NCBI GenBank assembly: GCA_009914755.4
Contig: CP086569.2
Span: forward strand, 28,864,001 to 28,928,000
Direction of reading: 5' to 3'
DNA: 64,000 bases
DNA from: the human T2T-CHM13v2.0 reference genome, Homo sapiens
In this document: piece after piece, positions 38,301 through 64,000 of the stretch
Position numbering within the stretch: the first letter of the stretch is position 1
Layout: every line of letters begins with the position of its first letter
The notes under the pieces: model-generated
Database searches by the model: none
What the model was told of the DNA's origin: nothing
What the model saw: only the letters and a program-made list of their open reading frames with translations
Translations under genes and position numbers: made by a program

Positions 38301-38909
38301 TTCCCTTCCATTCCTGTTGATTCAATTTCATTCCCTTCCATTCGATTCCTTTCCATTCGATTCCATTCCTTTCCATTCCATTCCATTCGTTCCCATTCCA
38401 TGTGATTTCATTCCATTCCAGTCCATTATATTCGAGTCCACTCCACTCCATTCTATTACATTCAATTCCTTTTGAGTCCGTTCCATAACACTCCATTCAT
38501 TTCGATTCCATTTCTTGCCAGTTTTCTTCCATTTTATTCCATTCCGTTCGATTCCATTCCATTCGATTGCATTCCATTCGAATCCTTTCCATTCCATTTC
38601 ATTCCATTCCTTTCTATTCCATTCCATTTCATTCGATTTGATTCCATTCTGTTCTATTCCATTCAATTCTTTTTCATTCCATTCGAATCCTTTCTATTGC
38701 AGTCCATTCCATTCGAGTCCATTCCAATCCCTTCCGTTCCATTCCATTACAGTCCATTCCAATAGATTCCATTCCTTTGCCTTCCATTTGAATCCATTCC
38801 ATTCTAGTCCATTCCATTTGAGTCAATTCCATTCCATTCCATTCTATTACTTTCCAATCCATTCGATTCCATTCGATTCAATTCCATTTGATTCTCTTTC
38901 ATTCTATTT
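35362..38909 (+). repeat. HSat3 HOR unit 11 (3548 bp), transition unit B to C
   Basis: Anchor at 35362 and 38910. The 5' part is class-B-like. The 3' part gains the +10-bp segment near 38830 and has a different single-copy state of the TTCGATTGCATTCCA motif (DCIPFESF). Confidence 0.75.
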
Positions 38910-41900: not shown

Positions 41901-42467
41901 CGATTCCATTCCTTTCCATTGCTTTCCATTCGTTCCCATTCCATGTGATTTCATTCCATTCCAGTCCATTATATTCGAGTCCACTCCACTCCATTCTATT
42001 ACATTCAATTCCCTTTGATTACGTTCCATAACACTCCATTCATTTCGATTCCATTTCTTGCCGGTTTTCTTCCGTTTTATTCCATTCCGTTCGATTCCAT
42101 TCCATTCGATTGCATTCCATTCGATTGCATTCCATTCGAATCCTTTCCATTCCATTTCATTCCATTACTTTTTATTCCATTCCATTTCATTCGATTTGAT
42201 TCCATTCTGTTCTACTCCATTCAATTCTTTTTCATTCCATTCGAATCCTTTCTATTGCAGTCCATTCCATTCGAGTCCATTCCAATCCCTTCCATTCCAT
42301 TCCATTACAGTCCATTCCAATAGATTCCATTCCTTTGCCTTCCATTCGAATCCATTCCATTCTAGTCCATTCCATTTGAGTCAATTCCATTCCATGCCAT
42401 TCTATTCCTTTCCAATCCATTCGATTCCATTCGATTCAATTCCATTTGATTCTCTTTCATTCTATTT
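38910..42467 (+). repeat. HSat3 HOR unit 12 (3558 bp), divergent transition unit
   Basis: Anchor variant CATTTGATTGC at 38910, next anchor at 42468. Several private substitutions, for example the unit-12-specific minus-strand ORF at 39633..39848. GGCC retained at about 40631. Confidence 0.75.
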
Positions 42468-45400
42468 TATTCCATGCCATTTGATTTCATTGCATTCCAT
42501 TCCGTTTGATTCCAGTCCATTCAAGAAAGTTCCATTCCAGTCCATTGCTTTCGAGTCCATTCCATTCCACTCTAGTCTATTCCACTCCATTCCTTTCCAT
42601 TCCATTCCATACTATTCCATTCCATTCGTTTGCTTTCCTTTTCCAATCTATTCGAGTCCATTGCATTCCAGTCCAATCCATTCGATTACATTCCTTTTGA
42701 TTCCCTGCCAGTCGATTGCATTGCATACTAGACCATTCCAAACGAGTCCATTCCATTCTATTTCAACACTTTCCATTCCACTCTGTTCGAGTCCATTCCA
42801 TTCCAGTCCATTTAATTCAAGGGCATTCCATTCCATTCCATTCCATTTCATATTATTCCATTACATTCAATTCCATTCCAGATGATTCCATTCCGTTCTA
42901 TACCATTGCTCTCTGTTCCATTCCATTCCATCTGTCTCCATTCCATTCGTTTCGATTCCTTTCCATTCCATTCCATTATATTTGATCCTGTTTTATTAAA
43001 TTGCATTCTATTCGAGTGATTTCCATTCGAGTCCTTTCCATTAGATTCCATTCCATTCTATTCCATTCCTTTGGATTCCATTCCGTTCCGTTCCGTTCAC
43101 ATCAATTCCTTGTGATTCCATTACATTCGATTTCTTGCCATTCGATTCCATTCCTTTTGACTCCATTTCATTCGATTCCATTCCATTCCATTAATTTCCA
43201 TTCCATTCGAGACCTTTCCATTGCAGTCTTTTCCCTTTGAGTCCATTCCGTTCGATTCCCTTCCATTCGATTCCATTCCATTGGAGTCCGTACCAGTCGA
43301 GTCCATTCTATTCCAGTCCATTAGTATCGACTCCATCGCATTCGAGTTCATTCCATTCCGTGGCTGTCCATTCCATTTCGTTTGATGCCATTCCATACGA
43401 TTCCATTCAATTCGAGACCATTCTATTCCTGTCCATTCCTTGTGGTTCAATTCCATTTCACTCTAGTCCATTCCATTCCATTGAATTCCATTCGACTCTA
43501 TTCCGTTCCATTCAATTCCATTCCTTTCGATTCCATTTTTTTCGAGAACCTTCCATTACACTCCCTTCCATTCCAGTGCATTCCATTCCAGTCTCTTCAG
43601 TTCGATTCCATTCCATTCGTTTCGATTCCATTCCATTCCAGCGCATTCCATTCCATTCCATTGCTTTCCTTTCCGTTTCATTAGATTCCATTGCATTTGA
43701 TTCCATTCAATTCAATTCCGTGCTATTCAATTTGATTCATTTCCATTTAATTCCATTCCATTATATTCCATTCCTTTCGATTCCATTCCTTTCGAATCCA
43801 TTCCATTGGAGTGCATTCACTTCCAGAACATTCCATTCCAGTCGAATCCATTCGAGTACTTTCCATTAATGTTCATTACATTCTAATACATTCCATTCCA
43901 TTGCATTCCATTCCATTCCTTTCGATGCCATTCGATTCCATTCCATGCCAAATCATTGCATTCCTTTCCATTCCGTTCCTATCAATTCCATTCCATTCGA
44001 TTTAGTTCGATTCTATTCACTTCCATTCCATTCGATTCCATTCCATTGGAGTCAATTCCTTTCGACACCCAGCCTTTCCAGTCAATGATTTTGGATTCCA
44101 TTTTTTTGCATTCCATTACATTCTATGACATTCGATTCCGTTTCATTGCATTCCATTCCATACATTTTTATTCCATTCGAGACCGTAGCATTCCACTTTA
44201 TTCTAGGCCTGTCCATTACACTACATTCCCTTCCATTCCAATGAATTCCATTCCATTCCAATCCATTCCTTTCCTTTCGCTTGCATTCCATTCTATTCTC
44301 TTCTACTGCATACAATTTCACTCCATTCGTTCCCATTCCATTCAATTCCATTCCATTCAATTCCATTCCATTTGTTTCCATTCTCTTCGATTCCATTTCT
44401 TTATATTCCATGCCATTCGATTCCATTCTATTGGATTGCATTACATTCGTGTTCATTCCATTCCAGACCATTCCATTTGACTCCATTCCTTTCGAGCCCT
44501 TTCAATTTGAGTCCATTCCTTTCCAGTCCATTTCACTCCAGTCCATTACTATCCATTCCCTACCATTCCATCCCATTGCATTCCATTCCATTCCATTCCA
44601 TTCCATTGCATTCCATTCCATTCCATTGCACTGCACTCCATTCCATTACATTCTATTCTATTACAGTCGATTTTATTGCATTAGATTCTATTCCATTGGA
44701 TTACTTTCCATTCGATTACATTCCATTCATGTATATTCCATTCCAGTCAATTACATTCGAGTTCATTACGTTACATTCCAGTATATTCCATTGTATTCGA
44801 TCCCATTCCTTTCAATTCCATTTCATTCGACTCCATTATATTCGATTCCATTCCACCCGAATCCATTCCATTAGAGGACATTCCATTCCAATGCATTCCA
44901 TTCCATTCCAAAGCATTCCATTGCATTCGATTCCATCCCATTTGATGCCATTCCGTTTGATGCCATTCCATGACATTCCATTCCATTCGAGTCCATTCCG
45001 TTCCAATTCATTCCATTCCGTTTCATGAAATTCGAGTCCTTTCCAGTACATTTCATTCCAATCCCATCCAATCCAATCTACTCCATTCAATTCCTTTCCA
45101 TTCCATTTGATTAGATTCCATTGATTTGATTCCATTCAGTTTGATTCCATTCCGTGAAATTTCGTTCCATTCTATTCCATTGCATTACTTTCCATTCAAT
45201 TCCATTCCATTTCATTTCAGTCCATACGCTTCCTTTCCTTTCGATTCAATTCCATTTGATTCCACTCCATTCTATGCGATTTCATTCCAATCGATTCAAT
45301 TCCATTCGATGACATTCCTTTCGTTTCCATTCCATTCGAGTCCATTCAATTTGAGCATTCGTGTCCATTCTATTCGAGTCCATTCCATTACCGTCTATTC

Positions 45401-46011
45401 TATTCCCTTCCATTCCTGTTGATTCAATTTCATTCCCTTCCATTCGATTCCTTTCCATTCGATTCCATTCCTTTCCATTCCATTCCATTCGCTCCCATTC
45501 CATGTGATTTCATTCCATTCCAGTCCATTATATTCGAGTCCACTCCACTCCATTCTATTACATTCAATTCCTTTTGAGTCCGTTCCATAACACTCCATTC
45601 ATTTCGATTCCATTTCTTGCCAGTTTTCTTCCATTTTATTCCATTCCGTTCGATTCCATTCCATTCGATTGCATTCCATTCGAATCCTTTCCATTCCATT
45701 TCATTCCATTCCTTTCTATTCCATTCCATTTCATTCGATTTGATTCCATTCTGTTCTATTCCATTCAATTCTTTTTCATTCCATTCGAATCCTTTCTATT
45801 GCAGTCCATTCCATTCGAGTCCATTCCAATCCCTTCCATTCCATTCCATTACAGTCCATTCCAATAGATTCCATTCCTTTGCCTTCCATTCGAATCCATT
45901 CCATTCTAGTCCATTCCATTTGAGTCAATTCCATTCCATGCCATTCTATTCCTTTCCAATCCATTCGATTCCATTCGATTCAATTCCATTTGATTCTCTT
46001 TCATTCTATTT
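42468..46011 (+). repeat. HSat3 HOR unit 13 (3544 bp), class C
   Basis: Anchor (CATTTGATTTC variant) at 42468 and 46012. From about 42.2 kb onward the ORF translations are identical to unit 14 (for example the 210-aa ORF at 43237..43869 equals the one at 46781..47413). Confidence 0.8.
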
Positions 46012-49000
46012 TATTCCATGCCATTTGATTTCATTGCATTCCATTCCGTTTGATTCCAGTCCATTCAAGAAAGTTCCATTCCAGTCCATTGCTTTCGAGT
46101 CCATTCCATTCCACTCTAGTCTATTCCACTCCATTCCTTTCCATTCCATTCCATACTATTCCATTCCATTCGTTTGCTTTCCTTTTCCAATCTATTCGAG
46201 TCCATTGCATTCCAGTCCAATCCATTCGATTACATTCCTTTTGATTCCCTGCCAGTCGATTGCATTGCATACTAGACCATTCCAAACGAGTCCATTCCAT
46301 TCTATTTCAACACTTTCCATTCCACTCTGTTCGAGTCCATTCCATTCCAGTCCATTTAATTCAAGGGCATTCCATTCCATTCCATTCCATTTCATATTAT
46401 TCCATTACATTCAATTCCATTCCAGATGATTCCATTCCGTTCTATACCATTGCTCTCTGTTCCATTCCATTCCATCTGTCTCCATTCCATTCGTTTCGAT
46501 TCCTTTCCATTCCATTCCATTATATTTGATCCTGTTTTATTAAATTGCATTCTATTCGAGTGATTTCCATTCGAGTCCTTTCCATTAGATTCCATTCCAT
46601 TCTATTCCATTCCTTTGGATTCCATTCCGTTCCGTTCCGTTCACATCAATTCCTTGTGATTCCATTACATTCGATTTCTTGCCATTCGATTCCATTCCTT
46701 TTGACTCCATTTCATTCGATTCCATTCCATTCCATTAATTTCCATTCCATTCGAGACCTTTCCATTGCAGTCTTTTCCCTTTGAGTCCATTCCGTTCGAT
46801 TCCCTTCCATTCGATTCCATTCCATTGGAGTCCGTACCAGTCGAGTCCATTCTATTCCAGTCCATTAGTATCGACTCCATCGCATTCGAGTTCATTCCAT
46901 TCCGTGGCTGTCCATTCCATTTCGTTTGATGCCATTCCATACGATTCCATTCAATTCGAGACCATTCTATTCCTGTCCATTCCTTGTGGTTCAATTCCAT
47001 TTCACTCTAGTCCATTCCATTCCATTGAATTCCATTCGACTCTATTCCGTTCCATTCAATTCCATTCCTTTCGATTCCATTTTTTTCGAGAACCTTCCAT
47101 TACACTCCCTTCCATTCCAGTGCATTCCATTCCAGTCTCTTCAGTTCGATTCCATTCCATTCGTTTCGATTCCATTCCATTCCAGCGCATTCCATTCCAT
47201 TCCATTGCTTTCCTTTCCGTTTCATTAGATTCCATTGCATTCGATTCCATTCAATTCAATTCCGTGCTATTCAATTTGATTCATTTCCATTTAATTCCAT
47301 TCCATTATATTCCATTCCTTTCGATTCCATTCCTTTCGAATCCATTCCATTGGAGTGCATTCACTTCCAGAACATTCCATTCCAGTCGAATCCATTCGAG
47401 TACTTTCCATTAATGTTCATTACATTCTAATACATTCCATTCCATTGCATTCCATTCCATTCCTTTCGATGCCATTCGATTCCATTCCATGCCAAATCAT
47501 TGCATTCCTTTCCATTCCGTTCCTATCAATTCCATTCCATTCGATTTAGTTCGATTCTATTCACTTCCATTCCATTCGATTCCATTCCATTGGAGTCAAT
47601 TCCTTTCGACACCCAGCCTTTCCAGTCAATGATTTTGGATTCCATTTTTTTGCATTCCATTACATTCTATGACATTCGATTCCGTTTCATTGCATTCCAT
47701 TCCATACATTTTTATTCCATTCGAGACCGTAGCATTCCACTTTATTCTAGGCCTGTCCATTACACTACATTCCCTTCCATTCCAATGAATTCCATTCCAT
47801 TCCAATCCATTCCTTTCCTTTCGCTTGCATTCCATTCTATTCTCTTCTACTGCATACAATTTCACTCCATTCGTTCCCATTCCATTCAATTCCATTCCAT
47901 TCAATTCCATTCCATTTGTTTCCATTCTCTTCGATTCCATTTCTTTATATTCCATGCCATTCGATTCCATTCTATTGGATTGCATTACATTCGTGTTCAT
48001 TCCATTCCAGACCATTCCATTTGACTCCATTCCTTTCGAGCCCTTTCAATTTGAGTCCATTCCTTTCCAGTCCATTTCACTCCAGTCCATTACTATCCAT
48101 TCCCTACCATTCCATCCCATTGCATTCCATTCCATTCCATTCCATTCCATTGCATTCCATTCCATTCCATTGCACTGCACTCCATTCCATTACATTCTAT
48201 TCTATTACAGTCGATTTTATTGCATTAGATTCTATTCCATTGGATTACTTTCCATTCGATTACATTCCATTCATGTATATTCCATTCCAGTCAATTACAT
48301 TCGAGTTCATTACGTTACATTCCAGTATATTCCATTGTATTCGATCCCATTCCTTTCAATTCCATTTCATTCGACTCCATTATATTCGATTCCATTCCAC
48401 CCGAATCCATTCCATTAGAGGACATTCCATTCCAATGCATTCCATTCCATTCCAAAGCATTCCATTGCATTCGATTCCATCCCATTTGATGCCATTCCGT
48501 TTGATGCCATTCCATGACATTCCATTCCATTCGAGTCCATTCCGTTCCAATTCATTCCATTCCGTTTCATGAAATTCGAGTCCTTTCCAGTACATTTCAT
48601 TCCAATCCCATCCAATCCAATCTACTCCATTCAATTCCTTTCCATTCCATTTGATTAGATTCCATTGATTTGATTCCATTCAGTTTGATTCCATTCCGTG
48701 AAATTTCGTTCCATTCTATTCCATTGCATTACTTTCCATTCAATTCCATTCCATTTCATTTCAGTCCATACGCTTCCTTTCCTTTCGATTCAATTCCATT
48801 TGATTCCACTCCATTCTATGCGATTTCATTCCAATCGATTCAATTCCATTCGATGACATTCCTTTCGTTTCCATTCCATTCGAGTCCATTCAATTTGAGC
48901 ATTCGTGTCCATTCTATTCGAGTCCATTCCATTACCGTCTATTCTATTCCCTTCCATTCCTGTTGATTCAATTTCATTCCCTTCCATTCGATTCCTTTCC

Positions 49001-49555
49001 ATTCGATTCCATTCCTTTCCATTCCATTCCATTCGCTCCCATTCCATGTGATTTCATTCCATTCCAGTCCATTATATTCGAGTCCACTCCACTCCATTCT
49101 ATTACATTCAATTCCTTTTGAGTCCGTTCCATAACACTCCATTCATTTCGATTCCATTTCTTGCCAGTTTTCTTCCATTTTATTCCATTCCGTTCGATTC
49201 CATTCCATTCGATTGCATTCCATTCGAATCCTTTCCATTCCATTTCATTCCATTCCTTTCTATTCCATTCCATTTCATTCGATTTGATTCCATTCTGTTC
49301 TATTCCATTCAATTCTTTTTCATTCCATTCGAATCCTTTCTATTGCAGTCCATTCCATTCGAGTCCATTCCAATCCCTTCCATTCCATTCCATTACAGTC
49401 CATTCCAATAGATTCCATTCCTTTGCCTTCCATTCGAATCCATTCCATTCTAGTCCATTCCATTTGAGTCAATTCCATTCCATTCCATTCTATTCCTTTC
49501 CAATCCATTCGATTCCATTCGATTCAATTCCGTTTGATTCTCTTTCATTCTATTT
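46012..49555 (+). repeat. HSat3 HOR unit 14 (3544 bp), class C
   Basis: Anchor at 46012 and 49556. Near-identical to unit 13. Confidence 0.8.
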
Positions 49556-52500
49556 TATTCCATGCCATTTGATTGCATTGCATTCCATTCCGTTTGATTC
49601 CAGTCCATTCAAGAAAGTTCCATTCCAGTCCATTGCTTTTGAGTCCATTCCATTCCACTCTAGTCTATTCCACTCCATTCCTTTCCATTCCATTCCATAC
49701 TATTCCATTCCATTCCTTTGCATTCCGTTTCCACTCTATTCGAGTCCATTGCATTCCAGTCCAATCCATTCGATTACATTCCTTTTGATTCCCTGCCAGT
49801 CGATTGCATTGCATACTAGACCATTCCAAAGGAGTCCATTCCATTCTATTTCAACACTTTCCATTCCACTCTGTTCAAGTCCAATCCATTCCAGTCCATT
49901 TAATTCAAGGGCATTCCATTCCATTCCATTCCATTTCATGTTATTCCATTCCATTCAATTCCATTCCAGATGATTCCATTCCATTCTATACCATTGCTCT
50001 CTGTTCCATTCCATTCCATCTGTCTCCATTCCTTTCGTTTCGATTCCTTTCCATTCCATTCCATTACATTTGATCCTATTTTATTAAATTGCATTCTATT
50101 CGAGTGATTTCCATTCGAGTCCTTTCCATTCGATTCCATTCCATTCTATTCCATTCCTTTGGATTCCATTCCATTCCGTTCCGTTCACATCAATTCCTTG
50201 CGATTCCATTACATTTGATATCTTGCCATTCGATTCCATTCCTTTTGACTCCATTTCATTCGATTCCATTCCATTCCATTAATTTCCATTCCATTCGAGA
50301 CCTTTCCATTGCAGTCTTTTCCCTTCGAGTCCATTCCGTTCGATTCCCTTGCATTCGATTCCATTCCATTGGAGTCCGTACCAGTCGAGTCCATTCTATT
50401 CCAGTCCATTAGTTTCGACTCCATTGCATTCGAGTGCATTCCATTCCGTGGCTGTCCATTCCATTCCGTTTGATGCCATTCCATACGATTCCATTCAATT
50501 CGAGACCATTCTATTGCTGTCCATTCCTTGTGGTTCGATTCCATTTCACTCTAGTCCATTCCATTCCATTCAATTCCATTCGACTCTATTCCGTTCCATT
50601 CAATTCCATTCCATTCGATTCCATTTTTGTCGAGAACCTTCTATTACACTCCCTTCCATTCCAGTGCATTCCATTCCAGTCTCTTCAGTTCGATTCCATT
50701 CCATACGTTTCGATTCCATTCCATTCCAGCCCATTCCATTCCATTCCATTCCTTTGCTTTCCGTTTCATTAGATTCCATTACATTCGATTCCATTCAATT
50801 CAATTCCGTGCTATTCAATTTGATTGATTTCCATTTAATTCCATTCCATTAGATTCCATTCCGTTCGATTCCATTCCTTTCGAATCCATTCCATTGGAGT
50901 CCATTCACTTCCAGAACATTCCATTCCAGTCGAATCCATTCGAGTACTTTCCATTAATGTTCATTACATTCTAATACATTCCATTCCATTGCATTCCATT
51001 CCATTCCATTCGATGCCATTCGATTCCATTCCTTGCCAAATCATTGCATTCCTTTCCTTTCCGTTCCTATCAATTCCATTCCATTTGATTTAGTTCGATT
51101 CTATTCACTTCCATTCCATTCGATTCCATTCCATTGGAGTCAATTCCTTTCGACACCCAGCCTTTCCAGTCAATGATTTTGGATTCCATTTTTTTGCATT
51201 CCATTACATTCTATGACATTCGATTCCGTTTCATTGCATTCCATTCCATACATTTTTATTCCATTCGAGACCGTAGCATTCCAGTTTATTCCAGGCTTGT
51301 CCATTACACTACATTCCCTTCCATTCCACTGAATTCCATTCCATTCCAATCCATTCCTTTCCTTTCGCTTGCATTCCATTCTATTCTCTTCTACTGCATA
51401 CAATTTCACTCCATTCGTTCCCATTCCATTCAATTCCATTCCATTCAATTCCATTCCATTTGTTTCCATTCTCTTCGATTCCATTTCTTTATATTCCATG
51501 CCATTCGATTCCATTCTATTGGATTGCATTACATTCGTGTTCATTCCATTCCAGACCATTCCATTTGACTCCATTCCTTTCGAGCCCTTTCAATTTGAGT
51601 CCATTCCTTTCCAGTCCATTTCACTCCAGTCCATTACTATCCATTCCCTACCATTCCATCCCATTGCATTCCATTCCATTCCAATCCATTCCATTGCATT
51701 CCATTCCATTCCATTGCACTGCACTCCATTCCATTACATTCTATTCTATTACAGTCGATTTTATTGCATTAGATTCTATTCCATTGGATTACTTTCCATT
51801 CGATTACATTCCATTCATGTACATTCCATTCCAGTCAATTACATTCGAGTTCATTACGTTACATTCCAGTATATTCCATTGTATTCGATCCCATTCCTTT
51901 CAATTCCATTTCATTCGACTCCATTATATTCGATTCCATTCCACCCGAATCCATTCCATTAGAGGACATTCCATTCCAATGCATTCCATTCCATTCCAAA
52001 GCATTCCATTGCATTCGATTCCATCCCATTTGATGCCATTCCGTTTGATGCCATTCCATGACATTCCATTCCATTCGAGTCCATTCCGTTCCAATTCATT
52101 CCATTCCGTTTCATGAAATTCGAGTCCTTTCCAGTACATTTCATTCCAATCCCATCCAATCCAATCTACTCCATTCCATTCCTTTCCATTCCATTTGATT
52201 ATATTCCATTGATTTGATTCCATTCAGTTTGATTCCATTCCGTGAAATTTCGTTCCATTCTATTCCATTGCATTACTTTCCATTCAATTCCATTCCATTT
52301 CATTTCAGTCCATACGCTTCCTTTCCTTTCGATTCAATTCCATTTGATTCCACTCCATTCTATGCGATTTCATTCCAATCGATTCAATTCCATTCGATGA
52401 CATTCCTTTCGTTTCCATTCCATTCGAGTCCATTCAATTTGAGCATTCGTGTCCATTCTATTCGAGTCCATTCCATTACCGTCTATTCTATTCCCTTCCA

Positions 52501-53099
52501 TTCCTGTTGATTCAATTTCATTCCCTTCCATTCGATTCCTTTCCATTCGATTCCATTCCTTTCCATTCCATTCCATTCGCTTCCATTCCATGTGATTTCA
52601 TTCCATTCCAGTCCATTATATTCGAGTCCACTCCACTCCATTCTATTACATTCAATTCCTTTTGAGTCCGTTCCATAACACTCCATTCATTTCGATTCCA
52701 TTTCTTGCCAGTTTTCTTCCATTTTATTCCATTCCGTTCGATTCCATTCCATTCGATTGCATTCCATTCGAATCCTTTCCATTCCATTTCATTCCATTCC
52801 TTACTATTCCATTCCATTTCATTCGATTTGATTCCATTCTGTTCTATTCCATTCAATTCTTTTTCATTCCATTCGAATCCTTTCTATTGCAGTCCATTCC
52901 ATTCGAGTCCATTCCAATCCCTTCCATTCCATTCCATTACAGTCCATTCCAATAGATTCCATTCCTTTGCCTTCCATTCGAATCCATTCCATTCTAGTCC
53001 ATTCCATTTGAGTCAATTCCATTCCATTCCATTCTATTCCTTTCCAATCCATTCGATTCCATTCGATTCAATTCCATTTGATTCTCTTTCATTCTATTT
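49556..53099 (+). repeat. HSat3 HOR unit 15 (3544 bp), class D1; first half of a 7048-bp dimeric super-repeat
   Basis: Anchor at 49556 and 53100. Translations are identical to unit 17 at offset 7048 (the 270-aa ORF at 49161..49973 equals 56209..57021). HaeIII site lost: GGCT at 51294-51297. Confidence 0.8.
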
Positions 53100-56000
53100 T
53101 ATTCCATGCCATTTGATTGCATTGCATTCCATTCCGTTTGATTCCAGTCCATTGCTTTTGAGTCCATTCCATTCCACTCTAGTCTATTCCACTCCATTCC
53201 TTTCCATTCCATTCCATACTATTCCATTCCATTCCTTTGCATTCCGTTTCCACTCTATTCGAGTCCATTGCATTCCAGTCCAATCCATTCGATTACATTC
53301 CTTTTGATACCCTGCCAGTCGATTGCATTGCATACTAGACCATTCCAAAGGAGTCCATTCCATTCTATTTCACCACTTTCCATTCCACTCTGTTCAAGTC
53401 CAATCCATTCCAGTCCATTTAATTCAAGGGCATTCCATTCCATTCCATTCCATTTCATGTTATTCCATTCCATTCAATTCCATTCCAGATGATTCCATTC
53501 CATTCTATACCATTGCTCTCTGTTCCATTCCATTCCATCTGTCTCCATTCCTTTCGTTTCGATTCCTTTCCATTCCATTCCATTACATTTGATCCTATTT
53601 TATTAAATTGCATTCTATTCGAGTGATTTCCATTCGAGTCCTTTCCATTCGATTCCATTCCATTCTATTCCATTCCTTTGGATTCCATTCCATTCCTTTC
53701 CGTTCACATCAATTCCTTGCGATTCCATTACATTGGATATCTTGCCATTCGATTCCATTCCTTTTGACTCCATTTCATTCGATTCCATTCCATTCCATTA
53801 ATTTCCATTCCATTCGAGACCTTTCCATTGCAGTCTTTTCCCTTCGAGTCCATTCCGTTCGATTCCCTTGCATTCGATTCCATTCCATTGGAGTCCGTAC
53901 CAGTAGAGTCCATTCTATTCCAGTCCATTAGTTTCGACTCCATTGCATTCGAGTGCATTCCATTCCGTGGCTGTCCATTCCATTCCGTTTGATGCCATTC
54001 CATACGATTCCATTCAATTCGAGACCATTCTATTGCTGTCCATTCCTTGTGGTTCGATTCCATTTCACTCTAGTCCATTCCATTCCATTCAATTCCATTC
54101 GACTCTATTCCGTTCCATTCAATTCCATTCCATTCGATTCCATTTTGGTCGAGAACCTTCTATTACACTCCCTTCCATTCCAGTGCATTCCATTCCAGTC
54201 TCTTCAGTTCGATTCCATTCCATACGTTTCGATTCCATTCCATTCCAGCCCATTCCATTCCATTCCATTCCTTTGCTTTCCGTTTCATTAGATTCCATTG
54301 CATTCGATTCCATTCAATTCAATTCCGTGCTATTCAATTTGATTGATTTCCATTTAATTCCATTCCATTAGATTCCATTCCGTTCGATTCCATTCCTTTC
54401 GAATCCATTCCATTGGAGTCCATTCACTTCCAGAACATTCCATTCCAGTCGAATCCATTCGAGTACTTTCCATTAATGTTCATTACATTCTAATACATTC
54501 CATTCCATTGCATTCCATTCCATTCCATTCGATGCCATTCGATTCCATTCCTTGCCAAATCATTGCATTCCTTTCCTTTCCGTTCCTATCAATTCCATTC
54601 CATTTGATTTAGTTCGATTCTATTCACTTCCATTCCATTCGATTCCATTCCATTGGAGTCAATTCCTTTCGACACCCAGCCTTTCCAGTCAATGATTTTG
54701 GATTCCATTTTTTTGCATTCCATTACATTCTATGACATTCGATTCCGTTTCATTGCATTCCATTCCATACATTTTTATTCCATTCGAGACCGTAGATTTC
54801 CAGTTTATTCCAGGCTTGTCCATTACACTACATTCCCTTCCATTCCACTGAATTCCATTCCATTCCAATCCATTCCTTTCCTTTCGCTTGCATTCCATTC
54901 TATTCTCTTCTACTGCATACAATTTCACTCCATTCGTTCCCATTCCATTCAATTCCATTCCATTCAATTCCATTCCATTTGTTTCCATTCTCTTCGATTC
55001 CATTTCTTTATATTCCATGCCATTCGATTCCATTCTATTGGATTGCATTACATTCGTGTTCATTCCATTCCAGACCATTCCATTTGACTCCATTCCTTTC
55101 GAGCCCTTTCAATTTGAGTCCATTCCTTTCCAGTCCATTACTATCCATTCCCTACCATTCCATCCCATTGCATTCCATTCCATTCCAATCCATTCCATTG
55201 CATTCCATTCCATTCCATTGCACTGCACTCCATTCCATTACATTCTATTCTATTACAGTCGATTTTATTGCATTAGATTCTATTCCATTGGATTACTTTC
55301 CATTCGATTACATTCCATTCATGTACATTCCATTCCAGTCAATTACATTCGAGTTCATTACGTTACATTCCAGTATATTCCATTGTATTCGATCCCATTC
55401 CTTTCAATTCCATTTCATTCGACTCCATTATATTCGATTCCATTCCACCCGAATCCATTCCATTAGAGGACATTCCATTCCAATGCATTCCATTCCATTC
55501 CAAAGCATTCCATTGCATTCGATTCCATCCCATTTGATGCCATTCCGTTTGATGCCATTCCATGACATTCCATTCCATTCGAGTCCATTCCGTTCCAATT
55601 CATTCCATTCCGTTTCATGAAATTCGAGTCCTTTCCAGTACATTTCATTCCAATCCCATCCAATCCAATCTACTCCATTCAATTCCTTTCCATTCCATTT
55701 GATTATATTCCATTGATTTGATTCCATTCAGTTTGATTCCATTCCGTGAAATTTCGTTCCATTCTATTCCATTGCATTACTTTCCATTCAATTCCATTCC
55801 ATTTCATTTCAGTCCATACGCTTCCTTTCCTTTCGATTCAATTCCATTTGATTCCACTCCATTCTATGCGATTTCATTCCAATCGATTCAATTCCATTCG
55901 ATGACATTCCTTTCGTTTCCATTCCATTCGAGTCCATTCAATTTGAGCATTCGTGTCCATTCTATTCGAGTCCATTCCATTACCGTCTATTCTATTCCCT

Positions 56001-56603
56001 TCCATTCCTGTTGATTCAATTTCATTCCCTTCCATTCGATTCCTTTCCATTCGATTCCATTCCTTTCCATTCCATTCCATTCGCTCCCATTCCATGTGAT
56101 TTCATTCCATTCCAGTCCATTATATTCGAGTCCACTCCACTCCATTCTATTACATTCAATTCCTTTTGAGTCCGTTCCATAACACTCCATTCATTTCGAT
56201 TCCATTTCTTGCCAGTTTTCTTCCATTTTATTCCATTCCGTTCGATTCCATTCCATTCGATTGCATTCCATTCGAATCCTTTCCATTCCATTTCATTCCA
56301 TTCCTTTCTATTCCATTCCATTTCATTCGATTTGATTCCATTCTGTTCTATTCCATTCAATTCTTTTTCATTCCATTCGAATCCTTTCTATTGCAGTCCA
56401 TTCCATTCGAGTCCATTCCAATCCCTTCCATTCCATTCCATTACAGTCCATTCCAATAGATTCCATTCCTTTGCCTTCCATTCGAATCCATTCCATTCTA
56501 GTCCATTCCATTTGAGTCAATTCCATTCCATTCCATTCTATTCCTTTCCAATCCATTCGATTCCATTCGATTCAATTCCGTTTGATTCTCTTTCATTCTA
56601 TTT
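53100..56603 (+). repeat. HSat3 HOR unit 16 (3504 bp), class D2; second half of the dimer, with a 25-bp and a 15-bp deletion relative to D1
   Basis: Anchor at 53100 and 56604. The 25-bp deletion junction is at about 53146-53153 (CCAGTCCATT|GCTTTTG). A 15-bp deletion lies near 55125. Near-identical to unit 18 at offset 7048. Confidence 0.8.
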
Positions 56604-59600
56604 TATTCCATGCCATTTGATTGCATTGCATTCCATTCCGTTTGATTCCAGTCCATTCAAGAAAGTTCCATTCCAGTCCATTGCTTTTGAGTCCATTCCA
56701 TTCCACTCTAGTCTATTCCACTCCATTCCTTTCCATTCCATTCCATACTATTCCATTCCATTCCTTTGCATTCCGTTTCCACTCTATTCGAGTCCATTGC
56801 ATTCCAGTCCAATCCATTCGATTACATTCCTTTTGATTCCCTGCCAGTCGATTGCATTGCATACTAGACCATTCCAAAGGAGTCCATTCCATTCTATTTC
56901 AACACTTTCCATTCCACTCTGTTCAAGTCCAATCCATTCCAGTCCATTTAATTCAAGGGCATTCCATTCCATTCCATTCCATTTCATGTTATTCCATTCC
57001 ATTCAATTCCATTCCAGATGATTCCATTCCATTCTATACCATTGCTCTCTGTTCCATTCCATTCCATCTGTCTCCATTCCTTTCGTTTCGATTCCTTTCC
57101 ATTCCATTCCATTACATTTGATCCTATTTTATTAAATTGCATTCTATTCGAGTGATTTCCATTCGAGTCCTTTCCATTCGATTCCATTCCATTCTATTCC
57201 ATTCCTTTGGATTCCATTCCATTCCTTTCCGTTCACATCAATTCCTTGCGATTCCATTACATTGGATATCTTGCCATTCGATTCCATTCCTTTTGACTCC
57301 ATTTCATTCGATTCCATTCCATTCCATTAATTTCCATTCCATTCGAGACCTTTCCATTGCAGTCTTTTCCCTTCGAGTCCATTCCGTTCGATTCCCTTGC
57401 ATTCGATTCCATTCCATTGGAGTCCGTACCAGTCGAGTCCATTCTATTCCAGTCCATTAGTTTCGACTCCATTGCATTCGAGTGCATTCCATTCCGTGGC
57501 TGTCCATTCCATTCCGTTTGATGCCATTCCATACGATTCCATTCAATTCGAGACCATTCTATTGCTGTCCATTCCTTGTGGTTCGATTCCATTTCACTCT
57601 AGTCCATTCCATTCCATTCAATTCCATTCGACTCTATTCCGTTCCATTCAATTCCATTCCATTCGATTCCATTTTTGTCGAGAACCTTCTATTACACTCC
57701 CTTCCATTCCAGTGCATTCCATTCCAGTCTCTTCAGTTCGATTCCATTCCATACGTTTCGATTCCATTCCATTCCAGCCCATTCCATTCCATTCCATTCC
57801 TTTGCTTTCCGTTTCATTAGATTCCATTGCATTCGATTCCATTCAATTCAATTCCGTGCTATTCAATTTGATTGATTTCCATTTAATTCCATTCCATTAG
57901 ATTCCATTCCGTTCGATTCCATTCCTTTCGAATCCATTCCATTGGAGTCCATTCACTTCCAGAACATTCCATTCCAGTCGAATCCATTCGAGTACTTTCC
58001 ATTAATGTTCATTACATTCTAATACATTCCATTCCATTGCATTCCATTCCATTCCATTCGATGCCATTCGATTCCATTCCTTGCCAAATCATTGCATTCC
58101 TTTCCTTTCCGTTCCTATCAATTCCATTCCATTTGATTTAGTTCGATTCTATTCACTTCCATTCCATTCGATTCCATTCCATTGGAGTCAATTCCTTTCG
58201 ACACCCAGCCTTTCCAGTCAATGATTTTGGATTCCATTTTTTTGCATTCCATTACATTCTATGACATTCGATTCCGTTTCATTGCATTCCATTCCATACA
58301 TTTTTATTCCATTCGAGACCGTAGCATTCCAGTTTATTCCAGGCTTGTCCATTACACTACATTCCCTTCCATTCCACTGAATTCCATTCCATTCCTATCC
58401 ATTCCTTTCCTTTCGCTTGCATTCCATTCTATTCTCTTCTACTGCATACAATTTCACTCCATTCGTTCCCATTCCATTCAATTCCATTCCATTCAATTCC
58501 ATTCCATTTGTTTCCATTCTCTTCGATTCCATTTCTTTATATTCCATGCCATTCGATTCCATTCTATTGGATTGCATTACATTCGTGTTCATTCCATTCC
58601 AGACCATTCCATTTGACTCCATTCCTTTCGAGCCCTTTCAATTTGAGTCCATTCCTTTCCAGTCCATTTCACTCCAGTCCATTACTATCCATTCCCTACC
58701 ATTCCATCCCATTGCATTCCATTCCATTCCAATCCATTCCATTGCATTCCATTCCATTCCATTGCACTGCACTCCATTCCATTACATTCTATTCTATTAC
58801 AGTCGATTTTATTGCATTAGATTCTATTCCATTGGATTACTTTCCATTCGATTACATTCCATTCATGTACATTCCATTCCAGTCAATTACATTCGAGTTC
58901 ATTACGTTACATTCCAGTATATTCCATTGTATTCGATCCCATTCCTTTCAATTCCATTTCATTCGACTCCATTATATTCGATTCCATTCCACCCGAATCC
59001 ATTCCATTAGAGGACATTCCATTCCAATGCATTCCATTCCATTCCAAAGCATTCCATTGCATTCGATTCCATCCCATTTGATGCCATTCCGTTTGATGCC
59101 ATTCCATGACATTCCATTCCATTCGAGTCCATTCCGTTCCAATTCATTCCATTCCGTTTCATGAAATTCGAGTCCTTTCCAGTACATTTCATTCCAATCC
59201 CATCCAATCCAATCTACTCCATTCAATTCCTTTCCATTCCATTTGATTATATTCCATTGATTTGATTCCATTCAGTTTGATTCCATTCCGTGAAATTTCG
59301 TTCCATTCTATTCCATTGCATTACTTTCCATTCAATTCCATTCCATTTCATTTCAGTCCATACGCTTCCTTTCCTTTCGATTCAATTCCATTTGATTCCA
59401 CTCCATTCTATGCGATTTCATTCCAATCGATTCAATTCCATTCGATGACATTCCTTTCGTTTCCATTCCATTCGAGTCCATTCAATTTGAGCATTCGTGT
59501 CCATTCTATTCGAGTCCATTCCATTACCGTCTATTCTATTCCCTTCCATTCCTGTTGATTCAATTTCATTCCCTTCCATTCGATTCCTTTCCATTCGATT

Positions 59601-60147
59601 CCATTCCTTTCCATTCCATTCCATTCGCTCCCATTCCATGTGATTTCATTCCATTCCAGTCCATTATATTCGAGTCCACTCCACTCCATTCTATTACATT
59701 CAATTCCTTTTGAGTCCGTTCCATAACACTCCATTCATTTCGATTCCATTTCTTGCCAGTTTTCTTCCATTTTATTCCATTCCGTTCGATTCCATTCCAT
59801 TCGATTGCATTCCATTCGAATCCTTTCCATTCCATTTCATTCCATTCCTTTCTATTCCATTCCATTTCATTCGATTTGATTCCATTCTGTTCTATTCCAT
59901 TCAATTCTTTTTCATTCCATTCGAATCCTTTCTATTGCAGTCCATTCCATTCGAGTCCATTCCAATCCCTTCCATTCCATTCCATTACAGTCCATTCCAA
60001 TAGATTCCATTCCTTTGCCTTCCATTCGAATCCATTCCATTCTAGTCCATTCCATTTGAGTCAATTCCATTCCATTCCATTCTATTCCTTTCCAATCCAT
60101 TCGATTCCATTCGATTCAATTCCGTTTGATTCTCTTTCATTCTATTT
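56604..60147 (+). repeat. HSat3 HOR unit 17 (3544 bp), class D1
   Basis: Anchor at 56604 and 60148. Matches unit 15. Confidence 0.8.
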
Positions 60148-63100
60148 TATTCCATGCCATTTGATTGCATTGCATTCCATTCCGTTTGATTCCAGTCCAT
60201 TGCTTTTGAGTCCATTCCATTCCACTCTAGTCTATTCCACTCCATTCCTTTCCATTCCATTCCATACTATTCCATTCCATTCCTTTGCATTCCGTTTCCA
60301 CTCTATTCGAGTCCATTGCATTCCAGTCCAATCCATTCGATTACATTCCTTTTGATACCCTGCCAGTCGATTGCATTGCATACTAGACCATTCCAAAGGA
60401 GTCCATTCCATTCTATTTCACCACTTTCCATTCCACTCTGTTCAAGTCCAATCCATTCCAGTCCATTTAATTCAAGGGCATTCCATTCCATTCCATTCCA
60501 TTTCATGTTATTCCATTCCATTCAATTCCATTCCAGATGATTCCATTCCATTCTATACCATTGCTCTCTGTTCCATTCCATTCCATCTGTCTCCATTCCT
60601 TTCGTTTCGATTCCTTTCCATTCCATTCCATTACATTTGATCCTATTTTATTAAATTGCATTCTATTCGAGTGATTTCCATTCGAGTCCTTTCCATTCGA
60701 TTCCATTCCATTCTATTCCATTCCTTTGGATTCCATTCCATTCCTTTCCGTTCACATCAATTCCTTGCGATTCCATTACATTGGATATCTTGCCATTCGA
60801 TTCCATTCCTTTTGACTCCATTTCATTCGATTCCATTCCATTCCATTAATTTCCATTCCATTCGAGACCTTTCCATTGCAGTCTTTTCCCTTCGAGTCCA
60901 TTCCGTTCGATTCCCTTGCATTCGATTCCATTCCATTGGAGTCCGTACCAGTAGAGTCCATTCTATTCCAGTCCATTAGTTTCGACTCCATTGCATTCGA
61001 GTGCATTCCATTCCGTGGCTGTCCATTCCATTCCGTTTGATGCCATTCCATACGATTCCATTCAATTCGAGACCATTCTATTGCTGTCCATTCCTTGTGG
61101 TTCGATTCCATTTCACTCTAGTCCATTCCATTCCATTCAATTCCATTCGACTCTATTCCGTTCCATTCAATTCCATTCCATTCGATTCCATTTTGGTCGA
61201 GAACCTTCTATTACACTCCCTTCCATTCCAGTGCATTCCATTCCAGTCTCTTCAGTTCGATTCCATTCCATACGTTTCGATTCCATTCCATTCCAGCCCA
61301 TTCCATTCCATTCCATTCCTTTGCTTTCCGTTTCATTAGATTCCATTGCATTCGATTCCATTCAATTCAATTCCGTACTATTCAATTTGATTGATTTCCA
61401 TTTAATTCCATTCCATTAGATTCCATTCCGTTCGATTCCATTCCTTTCGAATCCATTCCATTGGAGTCCATTCACTTCCAGAACATTCCATTCCAGTCGA
61501 ATCCATTCGAGTACTTTCCATTAATGTTCATTACATTCTAATACATTCCATTCCATTGCATTCCATTCCATTCCATTCGATGCCATTCGATTCCATTCCA
61601 TGCCAAATCATTGCATTCCTTTCCTTTCCGTTCCTATCAATTCCATTCCATTTGATTTAGTTCGATTCTATTCACTTCCATTCCATTCGATTCCATTCCA
61701 TTGGAGTCAATTCCTTTCGACACCCAGCCTTTCCAGTCAATGATTTTGGATTCCATTTTTTTGCATTCCATTACATTCTATGACATTCGATTCCGTTTCA
61801 TTGCATTCCATTCCATACATTTTTATTCCATTCGAGACCGTAGCATTCCAGTTTATTCCAGGCTTGTCCATTACACTACATTCCCTTCCATTCCACTGAA
61901 TTCCATTCCATTCCAATCCATTCCTTTCCTTTCGCTTGCATTCCATTCTATTCTCTTCTACTGCATACAATTTCACTCCATTCGTTCCCATTCCATTCAA
62001 TTCCATTCCATTCAATTCCATTCCATTTTTTCCATTCTCTTCGATTCCATTTCTTTATATTCCATGCCATTCGATTCCATTCTATTGGATTGCATTACAT
62101 TCGTGTTCATTCCATTCCAGACCATTCCATTTGACTCCATTCCTTTCGAGCCCTTTCAATTTGAGTCCATTCCTTTCCAGTCCATTTCACTCCAGTCCAT
62201 TACTATCCATTCCCTAACATTCCATCCCATTGCATTCCATTCCATTCCATTCCATTCCATTCCATTGCATTCCATTCCATTCCATTGCACTGCACTCCAT
62301 TCCATTACATTCTATTCTATTACAGTCGATTTTATTGCATTAGATTCTATTCCATTGGATTACTTTCCATTCGATTACATTCCATTCATGTACATTCCAT
62401 TCCAGTCAATTACATTCGAGTTCATTACGTTACATTCCAGTATATTCCATTGTATTCGATCCCATTCCTTTCAATTCCATTTCATTCGACTCCATTATAT
62501 TCGATTCCATTCCACCCGAATCCATTCCAGTAGAGGACATTCCATTCCAATGCATTCCATTCCATTCCAAAGCATTCCATTGCATTCGATTCCATCCCAT
62601 TTGATGCCATTCCGTTTGATGCCATTCCATGACATTCCATTCCATTCGAGTCCATTCCGTTCCAATTCATTCCATTCCGTTTCATGAAATTCGAGTCCTT
62701 TCCAGTACATTTCATTCCAATCCCATCCAATCCAATCTACTCCATTCAATTCCTTTCCATTCCATTTGATTAGATTCCATTGATTTCATTCCATTCAGTT
62801 TGATTCCATTCCGTGAAATTTCGTTCCATTCTATTCCATTGCATTACTTTCCATTCAATTCCATTCCATTTCATTTCAGTCCATTCGCTTCCTTTCCTTT
62901 CGATTCAATTCAATTTGATTCCACTCCATTCTATGCGATTTCATTCCAATCGATTCAATTCCATTCGATGACATTCCTTTCGTTTCCATTCCATTCGAGT
63001 CCATTCAATTTGAGCATTCGTGTCCATTCTATTCGAGTCCATTCCATTACCGTCTATTCTATTCCCTTCCATTCCTGTTGATTCAATTTCATTCCCTTCC

Positions 63101-63670
63101 ATTCGATTCCTTTCCATTCGATTCCATTCCTTTCCATTCCATTCCATTCGCTTCCATTCCATGTGATTTCATTCCATTCCAGTCCATTATATTCGAGTCC
63201 ACTCCACTCCATTCTATTACATTCAATTCCTTTTGAGTCCGTTCCATAACACTCCATTCATTTCGATTCCATTTCTTGCCAGTTTTCTTCCATTTTATTC
63301 CATTCCGTTCGATTCCATTCCATTCGATTGCATTCCATTCGAATCCTTTCCATTCCATTTCATTCCATTCCTTTCTATTCCATTCCATTTCATTCGATTT
63401 GATTCCATTCTGTTCTATTCCATTCAATTCTTTTTCATTCCATTCGAATCCTTTCTATTGCAGTCCATTGCATTCGAGTCCATTCCAATCCCTTCCATTT
63501 AATTCCGTTACAGTCCATTCCAATAGATTCCATTCCTTTGCCTTCCATTCGAATCCATTCCATTCTAGTCCATTCCATTTGAGTCAATTCCATTCCATTC
63601 CATTCTATTCCTTTCCAATCCATTAGATTCCATTCGATTCAATTCCGTTTGATTCTCTTTAATTCTATTT
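60148..63670 (+). repeat. HSat3 HOR unit 18 (3523 bp), class D2
   Basis: Anchor at 60148 and 63671. Shares the 25-bp deletion (junction about 60192-60202) with unit 16. Relative to unit 16 it has +15 bp and +5 bp, and a 1-bp deletion near 62025. Confidence 0.8.
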
Positions 63671-64000
63671 TATTCCATGTCATTTGATTGCATTGCATTC
63701 CATTCCGTTTGATTCCATTCCATTCAAGAAAGTTCCATTCCAGTCCATTGCTTTTGAGTCCATTCCATTCCACTCTAGTCTATTCCACTCCATTCCTTTC
63801 CATTCCATTCCATACTATTCCATTCCATTCCTTTGCATTCCGTTTCCAATCTATTCGAGTCCATTGCATTCCAGTCCAATCCATTCGATTACATTCCTTT
63901 TGATTCCCTGCCAGTCGATCGCATTGCATACTAGACCATTCCAAAGGAGTCCATTCCATTCTATTTCAACACTTTCCATTCCACTCTGTTCGAGTCCATT
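63671..64000 (+). repeat. HSat3 HOR unit 19, partial (first 330 bp), D-like
   Basis: Anchor variant TATTCCATGTCATTTGATTGC at 63671. The array continues beyond the window edge. Confidence 0.7.

What the first reader, a model, noticed from the sequence alone, without database searches (positions are those of the whole stretch)
49556..63670. Two-unit (7048-bp) super-HOR: alternating D1/D2 unit types
Units 15 and 17 (3544 bp each) are essentially identical to each other, and units 16 and 18 (3504 and 3523 bp) are essentially identical to each other. D1 and D2 differ from one another by a 25-bp deletion, a 15-bp deletion and multiple substitutions. ORF-track peptides repeat exactly at offset 7048 (49161..49973 vs 56209..57021; 50349..50852 vs 57397..57900; 53943..54371 vs 60991..61419). 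The amplified and converted unit here is therefore a dimer of DYZ1-like monomers, a higher order of organisation than the 3.5-kb HOR seen in the rest of the window.
Basis: seen in the sequence. Interest (0 to 1): 0.55.

Follow-up and report, generated by a model that had tools for sequence, protein, structure and literature searches.

The report
Local sequence-exchange patch in DYZ1 satellite
This is ordinary human Y-chromosome DYZ1 satellite in which two repeat units lying two apart share one identical 1.25-kb variant patch, the footprint of a single local exchange event rather than a new two-unit level of repeat organisation.

Summary
The window is 18 tandem ~3.5-kb units of human DYZ1 (HSat3A6), 98.2-98.9% identical to a published DYZ1 unit. 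The claimed alternation holds for only about a third of the unit. U16 and U18 share a 25-bp deletion and four substitutions, all in unit columns 41-1072, and are identical over 1,252 bp (53077-54328 = 60125-61376). In the remaining 2.3 kb, U16 matches U17 and U15, while U18 is the outlier with 16 substitutions and 2 indels. Over the whole unit, U16 is closer to U17 (7 substitutions) than to U18 (18). The 15-bp deletion is private to U16. "D1" is simply the ancestral state. The next unit (U19) already differs from U15 and U17 at 6 of 330 positions. A published superHOR criterion (at least 3 consecutive copies) is not met. The most economical reading is one ~1.0-1.25-kb gene-conversion-type transfer in a two-unit register. 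The alternative is a 7-kb unequal-exchange duplication that was later partly overwritten. Both are known behaviour of Yq12 satellites, so interest is low.

The parts
1..64000 (+). DYZ1 / HSat3A6 satellite array with the ATTCC-rich strand on +. It holds 18 full units (starts 1, 3549, 7082, 10615, 14148, 17711, 21245, 24778, 28311, 31829, 35362, 38910, 42468, 46012, 49556, 53100, 56604, 60148) plus the first 330 bp of a 19th.
   Evidence: TRF shows one pentamer-based array across the window. The k-mer period is 3504-3563. Units are 98.15-98.9% identical to the published human DYZ1 3,564-bp unit. The HSat3A6 24-mer is present in 17 of 18 units.
49556..53099 (+). Unit 15 (3544 bp). It carries the ancestral state at all five D2 markers and has 6 private substitutions relative to U16-18.
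53100..56603 (+). Unit 16 (3504 bp), a mosaic. Its 5' 1.25 kb is the D2 haplotype. Its 3' 2.3 kb is of the U15/U17 type and also carries a private 15-bp deletion and two adjacent private substitutions.
56604..60147 (+). Unit 17 (3544 bp). It has the ancestral state at the D2 markers and only 1 private substitution. Its 3' part is identical to that of U16.
60148..63670 (+). Unit 18 (3523 bp). Its 5' 1.25 kb is identical to U16. Its 3' 2.3 kb belongs to a separate lineage: 16 substitution differences from U15-17 (4 of them retained ancestral states), a 1-bp deletion and a 5-bp insertion.
53077..54328 (+). Copy 1 of the shared D2 patch. This is the maximal exact match at offset 7048, 1,252 bp. 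It contains the 25-bp deletion junction (53140|53141) and the derived bases A53309, C53373, A53905 and G54147.
60125..61376 (+). Copy 2 of the shared D2 patch, identical to 53077-54328. The deletion junction is at 60188|60189. The derived bases are A60357, C60421, A60953 and G61195.
49597..49621 (+). The 25 nt present in U15 (and at 56645-56669 in U17) that are missing from U16 and U18. They are bounded by a 13-bp direct repeat, ATTCCAGTCCATT, so the deletion is of the slippage type.
55128..55129 (+). Junction of the 15-bp deletion private to U16, which lies between two TCCAGTCCATT direct repeats. U18 retains these 15 nt at 62176-62190.
55129..56657 (+). A 1,529-bp exact match at the one-unit offset 3544, joining the U16 tail to the U17 tail. 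Adjacent units are therefore as similar here as alternate ones are elsewhere.
48659..50177 (+). A 1,519-bp exact match at offset 7048 that begins in the tail of U14. It exists because the last 1.3 kb of U13-U17 are all homogeneous, not because of a dimer.
63671..64000 (+). Start of unit 19. It has no 25-bp deletion but differs from U15 and U17 at 6 of 330 positions, so it is not a third D1 copy.

Best explanation
The region is an ordinary part of a human Yq12 DYZ1 (HSat3A6) array.

Shown:
- Units 15-18 form one young local family, at most 25 substitutions apart from each other and at least 53 from any other unit in the window.
- Within that family the relationships are mosaic.
- A derived patch of about 1.0-1.25 kb is present, base for base identical, at the 5' end of U16 and U18. 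It carries a 25-bp slippage deletion and 4 substitutions.
- The intervening U17 has the ancestral state there.
- In the other 2.3 kb, U16 belongs with U15 and U17, and U18 is a separate lineage.

Inferred:
- The most economical history starts from a run of one-unit duplicates (U15, U16, U17) lying next to a more diverged unit (U18).
- One non-reciprocal transfer, a gene-conversion tract of at least ~1,007 bp and at most 1,252 bp, then passed between U16 and U18. The two chromatids or DNA segments were misaligned by two units.
- Either direction is possible. Transfer from U16 to U18 explains without further assumption why U16's other private changes lie outside the patch.
- This is the same intra-array exchange process, gene conversion together with unequal sister-chromatid exchange, that homogenises Yq12 satellites in general. 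It has no function of its own.
For: Identity as DYZ1:
- The window matches a published human DYZ1 unit at 98.15-98.9%.
- The HSat3A6 24-mer from PMC4022460 occurs once per unit.
- Recalled DYZ1 primers bracket a 154-bp product in every unit.

Mosaic structure:
- The five characters where U16 equals U18 all lie at columns 1072 or below. The 18 characters where U16 equals U17 and U18 is odd all lie at column 1259 or beyond. The partition is perfect, p = 6e-5.
- By segment, columns 0-1259 give U16/U18 0 differences. Columns 2292-3584 give U16/U17 0, U14/U16 1, and U18 versus all others 11-14.
- The exact run at offset 7048 is 1,252 bp.

Polarity and rarity:
- All D2 markers are derived relative to U1-14 and three external units. 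U15-17 share derived states at four 3' sites where U18 keeps the ancestral base.
- (16,18) is the only sizeable non-contiguous sharing set. All other large sets are runs of neighbouring units.
- The patch shows 0 differences where 2.8 would be expected at the U15/U17 divergence, P(0) = 0.06. This hints that the patch is younger than the U15/U17 split.

Literature:
- Intra-array gene conversion was detected in father-son Yq12 comparisons, in 6 of 35 de novo events (10.64898/2026.06.03.729890).
- Unequal exchange and sister-chromatid exchange occur in Yq12 (10.1101/2022.12.01.518724).
Against: - A 7,048-bp duplication followed by a second exchange gives the same present-day pattern and cannot be excluded from four units.
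- U15 and U17 are close (8 substitutions), as a dimer duplication predicts.
- The direction and tract ends of the proposed conversion are inferred, not observed.
- Sequence to the right of 64000 is unavailable, so U18's 3' lineage cannot be identified.
- Assembly accuracy in a 99.6%-identical satellite cannot be checked here.
Confidence: 0.55

Rival explanations
1. This is a 7,048-bp tandem duplication. One unequal sister-chromatid exchange in a two-unit register copied [U15 U16] to give [U17 U18], with the crossover near the unit boundary. A second exchange later replaced the 3' 2.3 kb of either U18 (from a downstream lineage) or U16 (from U15 or U17). A dimer was duplicated once, but it is not a sustained higher-order repeat.
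For: - Dimer versus dimer identity is 99.63%, and U15/U17 differ by only 8 substitutions with no indel.
- U16 and U18 are identical over 1,252 bp.
- 6,450 shared 30-mers lie at offset 7048.
- Iterative tandem duplications by unequal exchange are documented in Yq12.
Against: - It needs at least two events where one conversion suffices.
- U16 is closer to U17 than to U18 overall, 9 versus 21 events, p = 0.04.
- No derived character is shared by U15 and U17 alone.
- Four 3' sites group U15-17 against U18.
- None of the single-crossover models tried at one- or two-unit offset reproduces the observed order of unit types. This was worked through by reasoning.
Confidence: 0.28
2. One reading: a true dimeric super-HOR. 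Alternating D1/D2 units are the unit of amplification, and the window's right edge catches the start of a longer D1-D2 domain.
For: - Unit lengths alternate 3544 / 3504 / 3544 / 3523.
- A 25-bp deletion and 4 substitutions are shared by U16 and U18.
- U19 again lacks the deletion.
Against: - There are only two periods.
- The U19 start differs from U15 and U17 at 6 of 330 positions.
- D1 is the ancestral default state.
- Alternation is absent from 70% of the unit.
- The D2 deletion junction was found in 0 of 53 external DYZ1 copies, and in 0 contigs in a dedicated scan.
- The published criterion of at least 3 consecutive n-mers is not met.
Confidence: 0.07
3. Assembly artefact. In a satellite array this homogeneous, mis-threaded reads could have pasted the same 1.25-kb variant into two units, or collapsed or expanded units.
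For: No direct evidence. The array is above 99.5% identical locally, which is the regime in which assemblers err. External long-read metagenome contigs of DYZ1 show obvious indel noise.
Against: The window shows clean pentamer-multiple indels, and its variant sets are coherent and block-structured, without scattered single-base indel noise. The mosaic boundaries are sharp and each haplotype is internally consistent.
Confidence: 0.07
4. Homoplasy. The 25-bp deletion arose twice independently by slippage between the flanking 13-bp direct repeats, so there is no shared ancestry between U16 and U18.
For: The deletion is bounded by a perfect 13-bp direct repeat spaced 25 bp apart. That is a slippage-prone context.
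Against: Four substitutions spread over 840 bp are shared with it, and the two copies are identical over 1,252 bp. The deletion is absent from 16 other units here and from 53 external copies.
Confidence: 0.01

Closest known systems
DYZ1 (HSat3A6), the ~3.56-kb HaeIII satellite of human Yq12
   Same: It is a pentamer (TTCCA/CATTC)-derived nested tandem repeat with a ~3.5-kb unit. Units are 98.2-98.9% identical to a published 3,564-bp unit and carry the HSat3A6 marker 24-mer. U1-U14 have one HaeIII site per unit.
   Different: Units here are shorter, 3,504-3,563 bp with a mode of 3,533, against 3,564-3,569. All lack 5 bp and a further 10-15 bp relative to the canonical unit. U15-U18 have lost the HaeIII site through GGCC>GGCT.
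Alpha-satellite superHORs, defined as n-mers of HOR haplotypes repeated at least 3 times (T2T-HG002 annotation, PMC13477032)
   Same: Two HOR-sized units with a distinguishable variant recur at a two-unit period.
   Different: There are only two copies. The distinguishing variant covers 30% of the unit. The second members, U16 and U18, are not each other's closest relatives over the whole unit. The third period deviates. It is also a different satellite family.
Iterative tandem duplications by unequal exchange in Yq12 (T2T-Y, 10.1101/2022.12.01.518724)
   Same: The chromosome region and the class of mechanism are the same: exchange between misaligned repeats.
   Different: Those events are reported at scales up to 5 Mb and span whole DYZ1/DYZ2 blocks. 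Here the register is two units (7 kb), and only a 1.25-kb patch is unambiguously shared.
Intra-array gene conversion in Yq12 seen in father-son transmissions (10.64898/2026.06.03.729890), and arm-to-arm conversion in Y palindromes (the latter from my own knowledge)
   Same: A contiguous block of linked variants is copied between paralogous repeats without a change in copy number. The tract length of ~1 kb is plausible.
   Different: Here the event is inferred from a single haplotype and not observed across a transmission. The donor and recipient cannot be told apart.

Membership tests
DYZ1 / HSat3A6 | Derived from tandem pentamer TTCCA/CATTC | tested here: met
   TRF reports one array over 2-63897 with consensus (ATTCC)n-type units of period 15/20/80.
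DYZ1 / HSat3A6 | Nested higher-order unit of about 3.5-3.6 kb | tested here: met
   30-mer next-occurrence offsets are 3504-3564 with a mode of 3533. There are 18 units. The literature gives ~3.5-3.6 kb.
DYZ1 / HSat3A6 | High sequence identity to a published human DYZ1 unit | tested here: met
   All 18 units are 98.15-98.92% identical to the MZT1a 3,564-bp unit from PMC3925983 Additional file 1.
DYZ1 / HSat3A6 | Carries the HSat3A6 representative 24-mer TCGTTTCGATTCCTTTCCATTCCA (PMC4022460 Table 1) | tested here: met
   There are 18 exact matches against 0 expected. The 24-mer is present in 17 of 18 units, being absent from U12 and present twice in U8.
DYZ1 / HSat3A6 | One HaeIII (GGCC) site per unit, giving the classical 3.56-kb band | tested here: inconclusive
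   Met in U1-U14, with 14 sites 3518-3574 bp apart. Not met in U15-U18, where the site reads GGCT.
DYZ1 / HSat3A6 | Located in Yq12, in blocks alternating with DYZ2 | not testable with these tools
   The window is pure DYZ1 and no flanking sequence or chromosome label is available.
superHOR (dimeric higher-order repeat of HOR units) | [quoted passage not shown] | tested here: not met
   There are two copies only. U13/U14 upstream are a near-identical pair of another type. The U19 start differs from U15 and U17 at 6 of 330 positions. Caveat: the window ends 330 bp into the third period.
superHOR (dimeric higher-order repeat of HOR units) | At least one unit of the n-mer belongs to a different haplotype class from the others | tested here: inconclusive
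   U16 and U18 share 5 derived characters confined to columns 41-1072. Over whole units, however, U16 is nearest to U17, and D1 has no derived character of its own.
superHOR (dimeric higher-order repeat of HOR units) | Identity at the n-unit offset exceeds identity at the one-unit offset | tested here: not met
   Dimer/dimer is 99.63%, U15/U16 99.63% and U16/U17 99.80%, against U16/U18 at 99.49%.
Simple tandem segmental duplication (two-unit unequal exchange) | Both copies comparably similar along the whole duplicated length | tested here: not met
   Differences at offset 7048 number 8 in the first 3.5 kb, 0 in the next 1,252 bp, then 21 events in 2.3 kb.
Gene-conversion tract between paralogous repeats | A contiguous block of shared derived variants, flanked on both sides by sites that contradict that grouping | tested here: met
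   The block spans columns 41-1072. It is flanked by 53076/60124 (A/G) on the left and 54329/61377 (G/A) on the right. The 5-against-18 partition is perfect, p = 6e-5.
Gene-conversion tract between paralogous repeats | Non-reciprocal transfer without copy-number change | not testable with these tools
   This needs the ancestral or related haplotypes, or a pedigree.

The most novel reading that the evidence does not exclude
The right edge of the window is the beginning of a genuine dimeric (7.05-kb) superHOR domain inside a DYZ1 array. In that reading, deleted and undeleted units keep alternating for many periods beyond 64000, and U18 and U19 are its true members rather than U15-U17. This would be a level of organisation not described for DYZ1 in the papers read here.
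Probability: 0.06. Interest if true: 0.3.

Novelty: already known. Interest (0 to 1): 0.12.

Why it matters
It matters little beyond bookkeeping. The case is a clean, base-resolved example of how DYZ1 arrays are homogenised in patches smaller than one unit and in registers other than one unit. It also shows that alternating unit lengths alone can mislead a reader into calling a higher-order repeat. The private markers could serve as local landmarks for validating assemblies of this array or for tracing it among related Y chromosomes. These markers are the 25-bp deletion, the four linked substitutions and the lost HaeIII site in U15-18.

Tried and rejected
1. My first unit boundaries were taken from a 120-bp anchor. 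They fell 25 bp off in U16 and U18 because of the deletion and inflated the mismatch counts.

2. Single unequal-crossover models at one- and two-unit offsets, with the chimera placed at U16, U17 or U18, were worked through against the character table. None reproduces the observed order of types without a second event (reasoning).

3. Recurrent slippage as the cause of the shared deletion is rejected because of the four linked substitutions.

4. I searched for the D2 deletion junction elsewhere. It was found in 0 metagenome contigs. The gapped pattern found 9 bacterial-assembly contaminant contigs and 42 metagenome stretches holding 44 matches. All 53 matching copies are undeleted. The long metagenome contigs are too noisy for unit-level analysis.

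5. The look-up of encoding contigs was run with two D2-junction ORFs and one D1 control ORF. Nothing was on record for any of them, so the result is uninformative.

6. The exact DYZ1 primer strings that I recalled from memory are not in the paper library. I used a published full unit instead.

7. My first rotation of the published unit used an ambiguous 12-mer anchor and gave nonsense alignments. This was corrected.

8. Rfam at the gathering threshold over 46000-64000 gave no hit.

9. The ORFs are low-complexity pentamer translations and were not pursued.
Full report
**What the window is.**
Tandem Repeats Finder reports a single pentamer-based array over 2-63897, and base composition is flat across the window. 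Shared 30-mers recur at 3,504-3,564 bp, with a mode of 3,533. A 120-bp anchor cuts the window into 18 full units plus 330 bp of a nineteenth.

A published human DYZ1 unit aligns to all 18 units at 98.15-98.92% identity, with a few indels that are multiples of five. That unit is the 3,564-bp HaeIII fragment MZT1a from PMC3925983 Additional file 1. The HSat3A6 representative 24-mer of Altemose et al. 2014 (PMC4022460) occurs 18 times against 0 expected. Two DYZ1 primers that I recalled from memory bracket a 154-bp product once per unit. I could not confirm their source in the paper library.

The window is therefore human Yq12 DYZ1 satellite. Its units are somewhat shorter than the canonical 3,564-3,569 bp.

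**Checking the observation.**
Global alignments give the following.

| Comparison | Substitutions | Indels | Identity |
|---|---|---|---|
| Dimer 49556-56603 vs 56604-63670 | 26 | 3 | 99.63% |
| U15 vs U17 | 8 | 0 | 99.77% |
| U16 vs U18 | 18 | 3 | 99.49% |
| U15 vs U16 | 13 | 2 | 99.63% |
| U16 vs U17 | 7 | 2 | 99.80% |
| U17 vs U18 | 21 | 3 | 99.40% |
| U15 vs U18 | 25 | 3 | 99.29% |

All four units are at least 53 substitutions from every other unit in the window. At the whole-unit level the predicted contrast is absent. U15/U16 is as similar as dimer/dimer. U16 is closer to its neighbour U17 than to its supposed twin U18: 9 versus 21 events, p = 0.04. The 15-bp deletion is in U16 only.

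**Where the alternation is.**
A character table for U15-U18 shows exactly five events with the pattern U15 = U17 and U16 = U18 but the two pairs different. They are the 25-bp deletion and substitutions at unit columns 234, 298, 830 and 1072. All lie in the first 1,072 of 3,584 columns.

- The patch is identical over 1,252 bp, 53077-54328 = 60125-61376. Coordinates of every marker were verified.
- After column 1258 the pattern changes completely. Sixteen substitutions, a 1-bp deletion and a 5-bp insertion separate U18 from U15 = U16 = U17.
- In the last 1.3 kb, U16 and U17 are identical and U14 differs from them by one base. U18 differs from all others by 11-14.
- For the triplet U16/U17/U18 the split is perfect: 5 characters on one side and 18 on the other, p = 6e-5.
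- Polarised with U1-U14 and three external DYZ1 units, all five alternating characters are derived in U16 and U18.
- At four 3' sites U15-17 share a derived base where U18 keeps the ancestral one.

"D1" is therefore not a type. It is simply the default state.

**Extent.**
Upstream, U13 and U14 are a near-identical pair of a different kind (3 substitutions apart). Their roughly 50 fixed differences from U15-18 are all in columns 19-2291.

Downstream, the first 330 bp of U19 lack the deletion. They differ from U15 and U17 at six positions where those two are identical to each other. The 7,048-bp period is thus seen twice and does not visibly continue.

Among 244 variable characters in the 18 units, every large sharing set except (16,18) is a run of neighbouring units. 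The two-unit sharing is therefore real, and it is a single exception.

**Elsewhere.**
A pattern spanning the deletion site was scanned with a 0-25-nt gap. It found 9 contigs in bacterial genome assemblies and 42 stretches in metagenome assemblies. The bacterial hits are human Y contamination of the kind described by Rhie et al.. All 53 matches carry the undeleted state. The deletion junction on its own found nothing.

Two of the contaminant contigs are collapsed DYZ1 units of 3,569 and 3,574 bp, 99.75% identical to the published unit. 3,569 bp is the modal HaeIII fragment length reported by Hallast et al.. The D2 patch is thus a rare, local variant and not a known DYZ1 sub-type.

**Mechanism.**
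Both deletions lie between short direct repeats, 13 bp spaced 25 bp apart and 11 bp spaced 15 bp apart, so they are slippage-type events.

The shared patch needs an exchange between units two apart. The single-event explanation is a gene-conversion tract between about 1,007 and 1,252 bp long, passing between U16 and U18. The background would be a run of one-unit duplicates (U15-17) next to a more diverged unit (U18).

A 7,048-bp unequal-exchange duplication is also possible. It requires a second event to make the 3' parts of U16 and U18 differ, and none of the single-crossover models I worked through fits the order of types. The patch has 0 differences where 2.8 are expected at the U15/U17 divergence, P = 0.06, a weak hint that it is younger.

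Both processes are documented for Yq12:
- unequal exchange, iterative duplications and sister-chromatid exchanges;
- greater homogeneity in the middle of arrays;
- intra-array gene conversion in 6 of 35 de novo events in father-son pairs.

I put about 0.55 on conversion, 0.28 on duplication plus overwrite, and about 0.07 each on a true extended super-HOR and on an assembly artefact.

**Comparison with known categories.**
[quoted passage not shown] Here the repeat count is two and the haplotype distinction covers 30% of the unit. Identity at the two-unit offset does not exceed that at the one-unit offset. Membership is not met.

No Rfam family matches. One of the three 'exact' peptide pairs actually differs by one residue.

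**Verdict.**
It is an ordinary DYZ1 array with one patch-sized exchange in a two-unit register. Interest is low.

Noticed in passing
51291-51302, 54810-54821, 58339-58350, 61858-61869 (no GGCC anywhere in 47751-64000): All four units U15-U18 have GGCT instead of the single HaeIII site (GGCC) that classically defines the 3.56-kb DYZ1 band, so this stretch of more than 16 kb would not be cut. The variant was absent from 51 external DYZ1 loci, where the canonical form occurs 24 times.
   Followed up: partly
38910-42467 (unit 12): Unit 12 is an outlier with 45 private characters and several private 15-bp indels. It is 67-101 substitutions from every other unit and lacks the HSat3A6 marker 24-mer.
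   Followed up: no
42468-49555 versus 49556-60147: U13/U14 differ from U15-U18 by about 50 fixed differences, all in unit columns 19-2291. The last 1.3 kb of U13-U17 are nearly identical. This second mosaic boundary explains the 1,519-bp exact match at offset 7048 that starts at 48659, inside U14.
   Followed up: partly
3549-10614 (U2/U3) and 42468-49555 (U13/U14): Adjacent unit pairs differ by only 2 and 3 substitutions, which indicates very recent one-unit duplications or conversions. The window as a whole falls into blocks of neighbours: U1-5, U6-11, U12, U13-14, U15-18.
   Followed up: partly
whole window, all units (relative to canonical unit positions ~356 and ~2110-2146): Every unit lacks 5 bp, and all but U12 lack 10-15 bp more, relative to the published 3,564-bp unit. 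The modal length is 3,533 bp rather than 3,564-3,569. This suggests a distinct, somewhat diverged DYZ1 sub-array.
   Followed up: no
L001 (BMRF01000076.1, Actinomadura cremea), L009 (CAYVXY010000078.1), L002-L008: Bacterial genome assemblies contain human DYZ1 contigs. Two are complete collapsed units (3,574 and 3,569 bp) with terminal k-mer overlaps, 99.75% identical to published human DYZ1. This is database contamination of the kind reported with T2T-Y.
   Followed up: partly
L012, L016, L019 (BNJT01001888.1, 55 kb); L020 (BNJU01001848.1, 52 kb); L031, L051 (BNJU01004413.1, 55 kb): Long metagenome contigs of 52-55 kb consist of DYZ1 arrays, apparently human DNA in long-read metagenome assemblies. 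They carry visible single-base indel noise.
   Followed up: no
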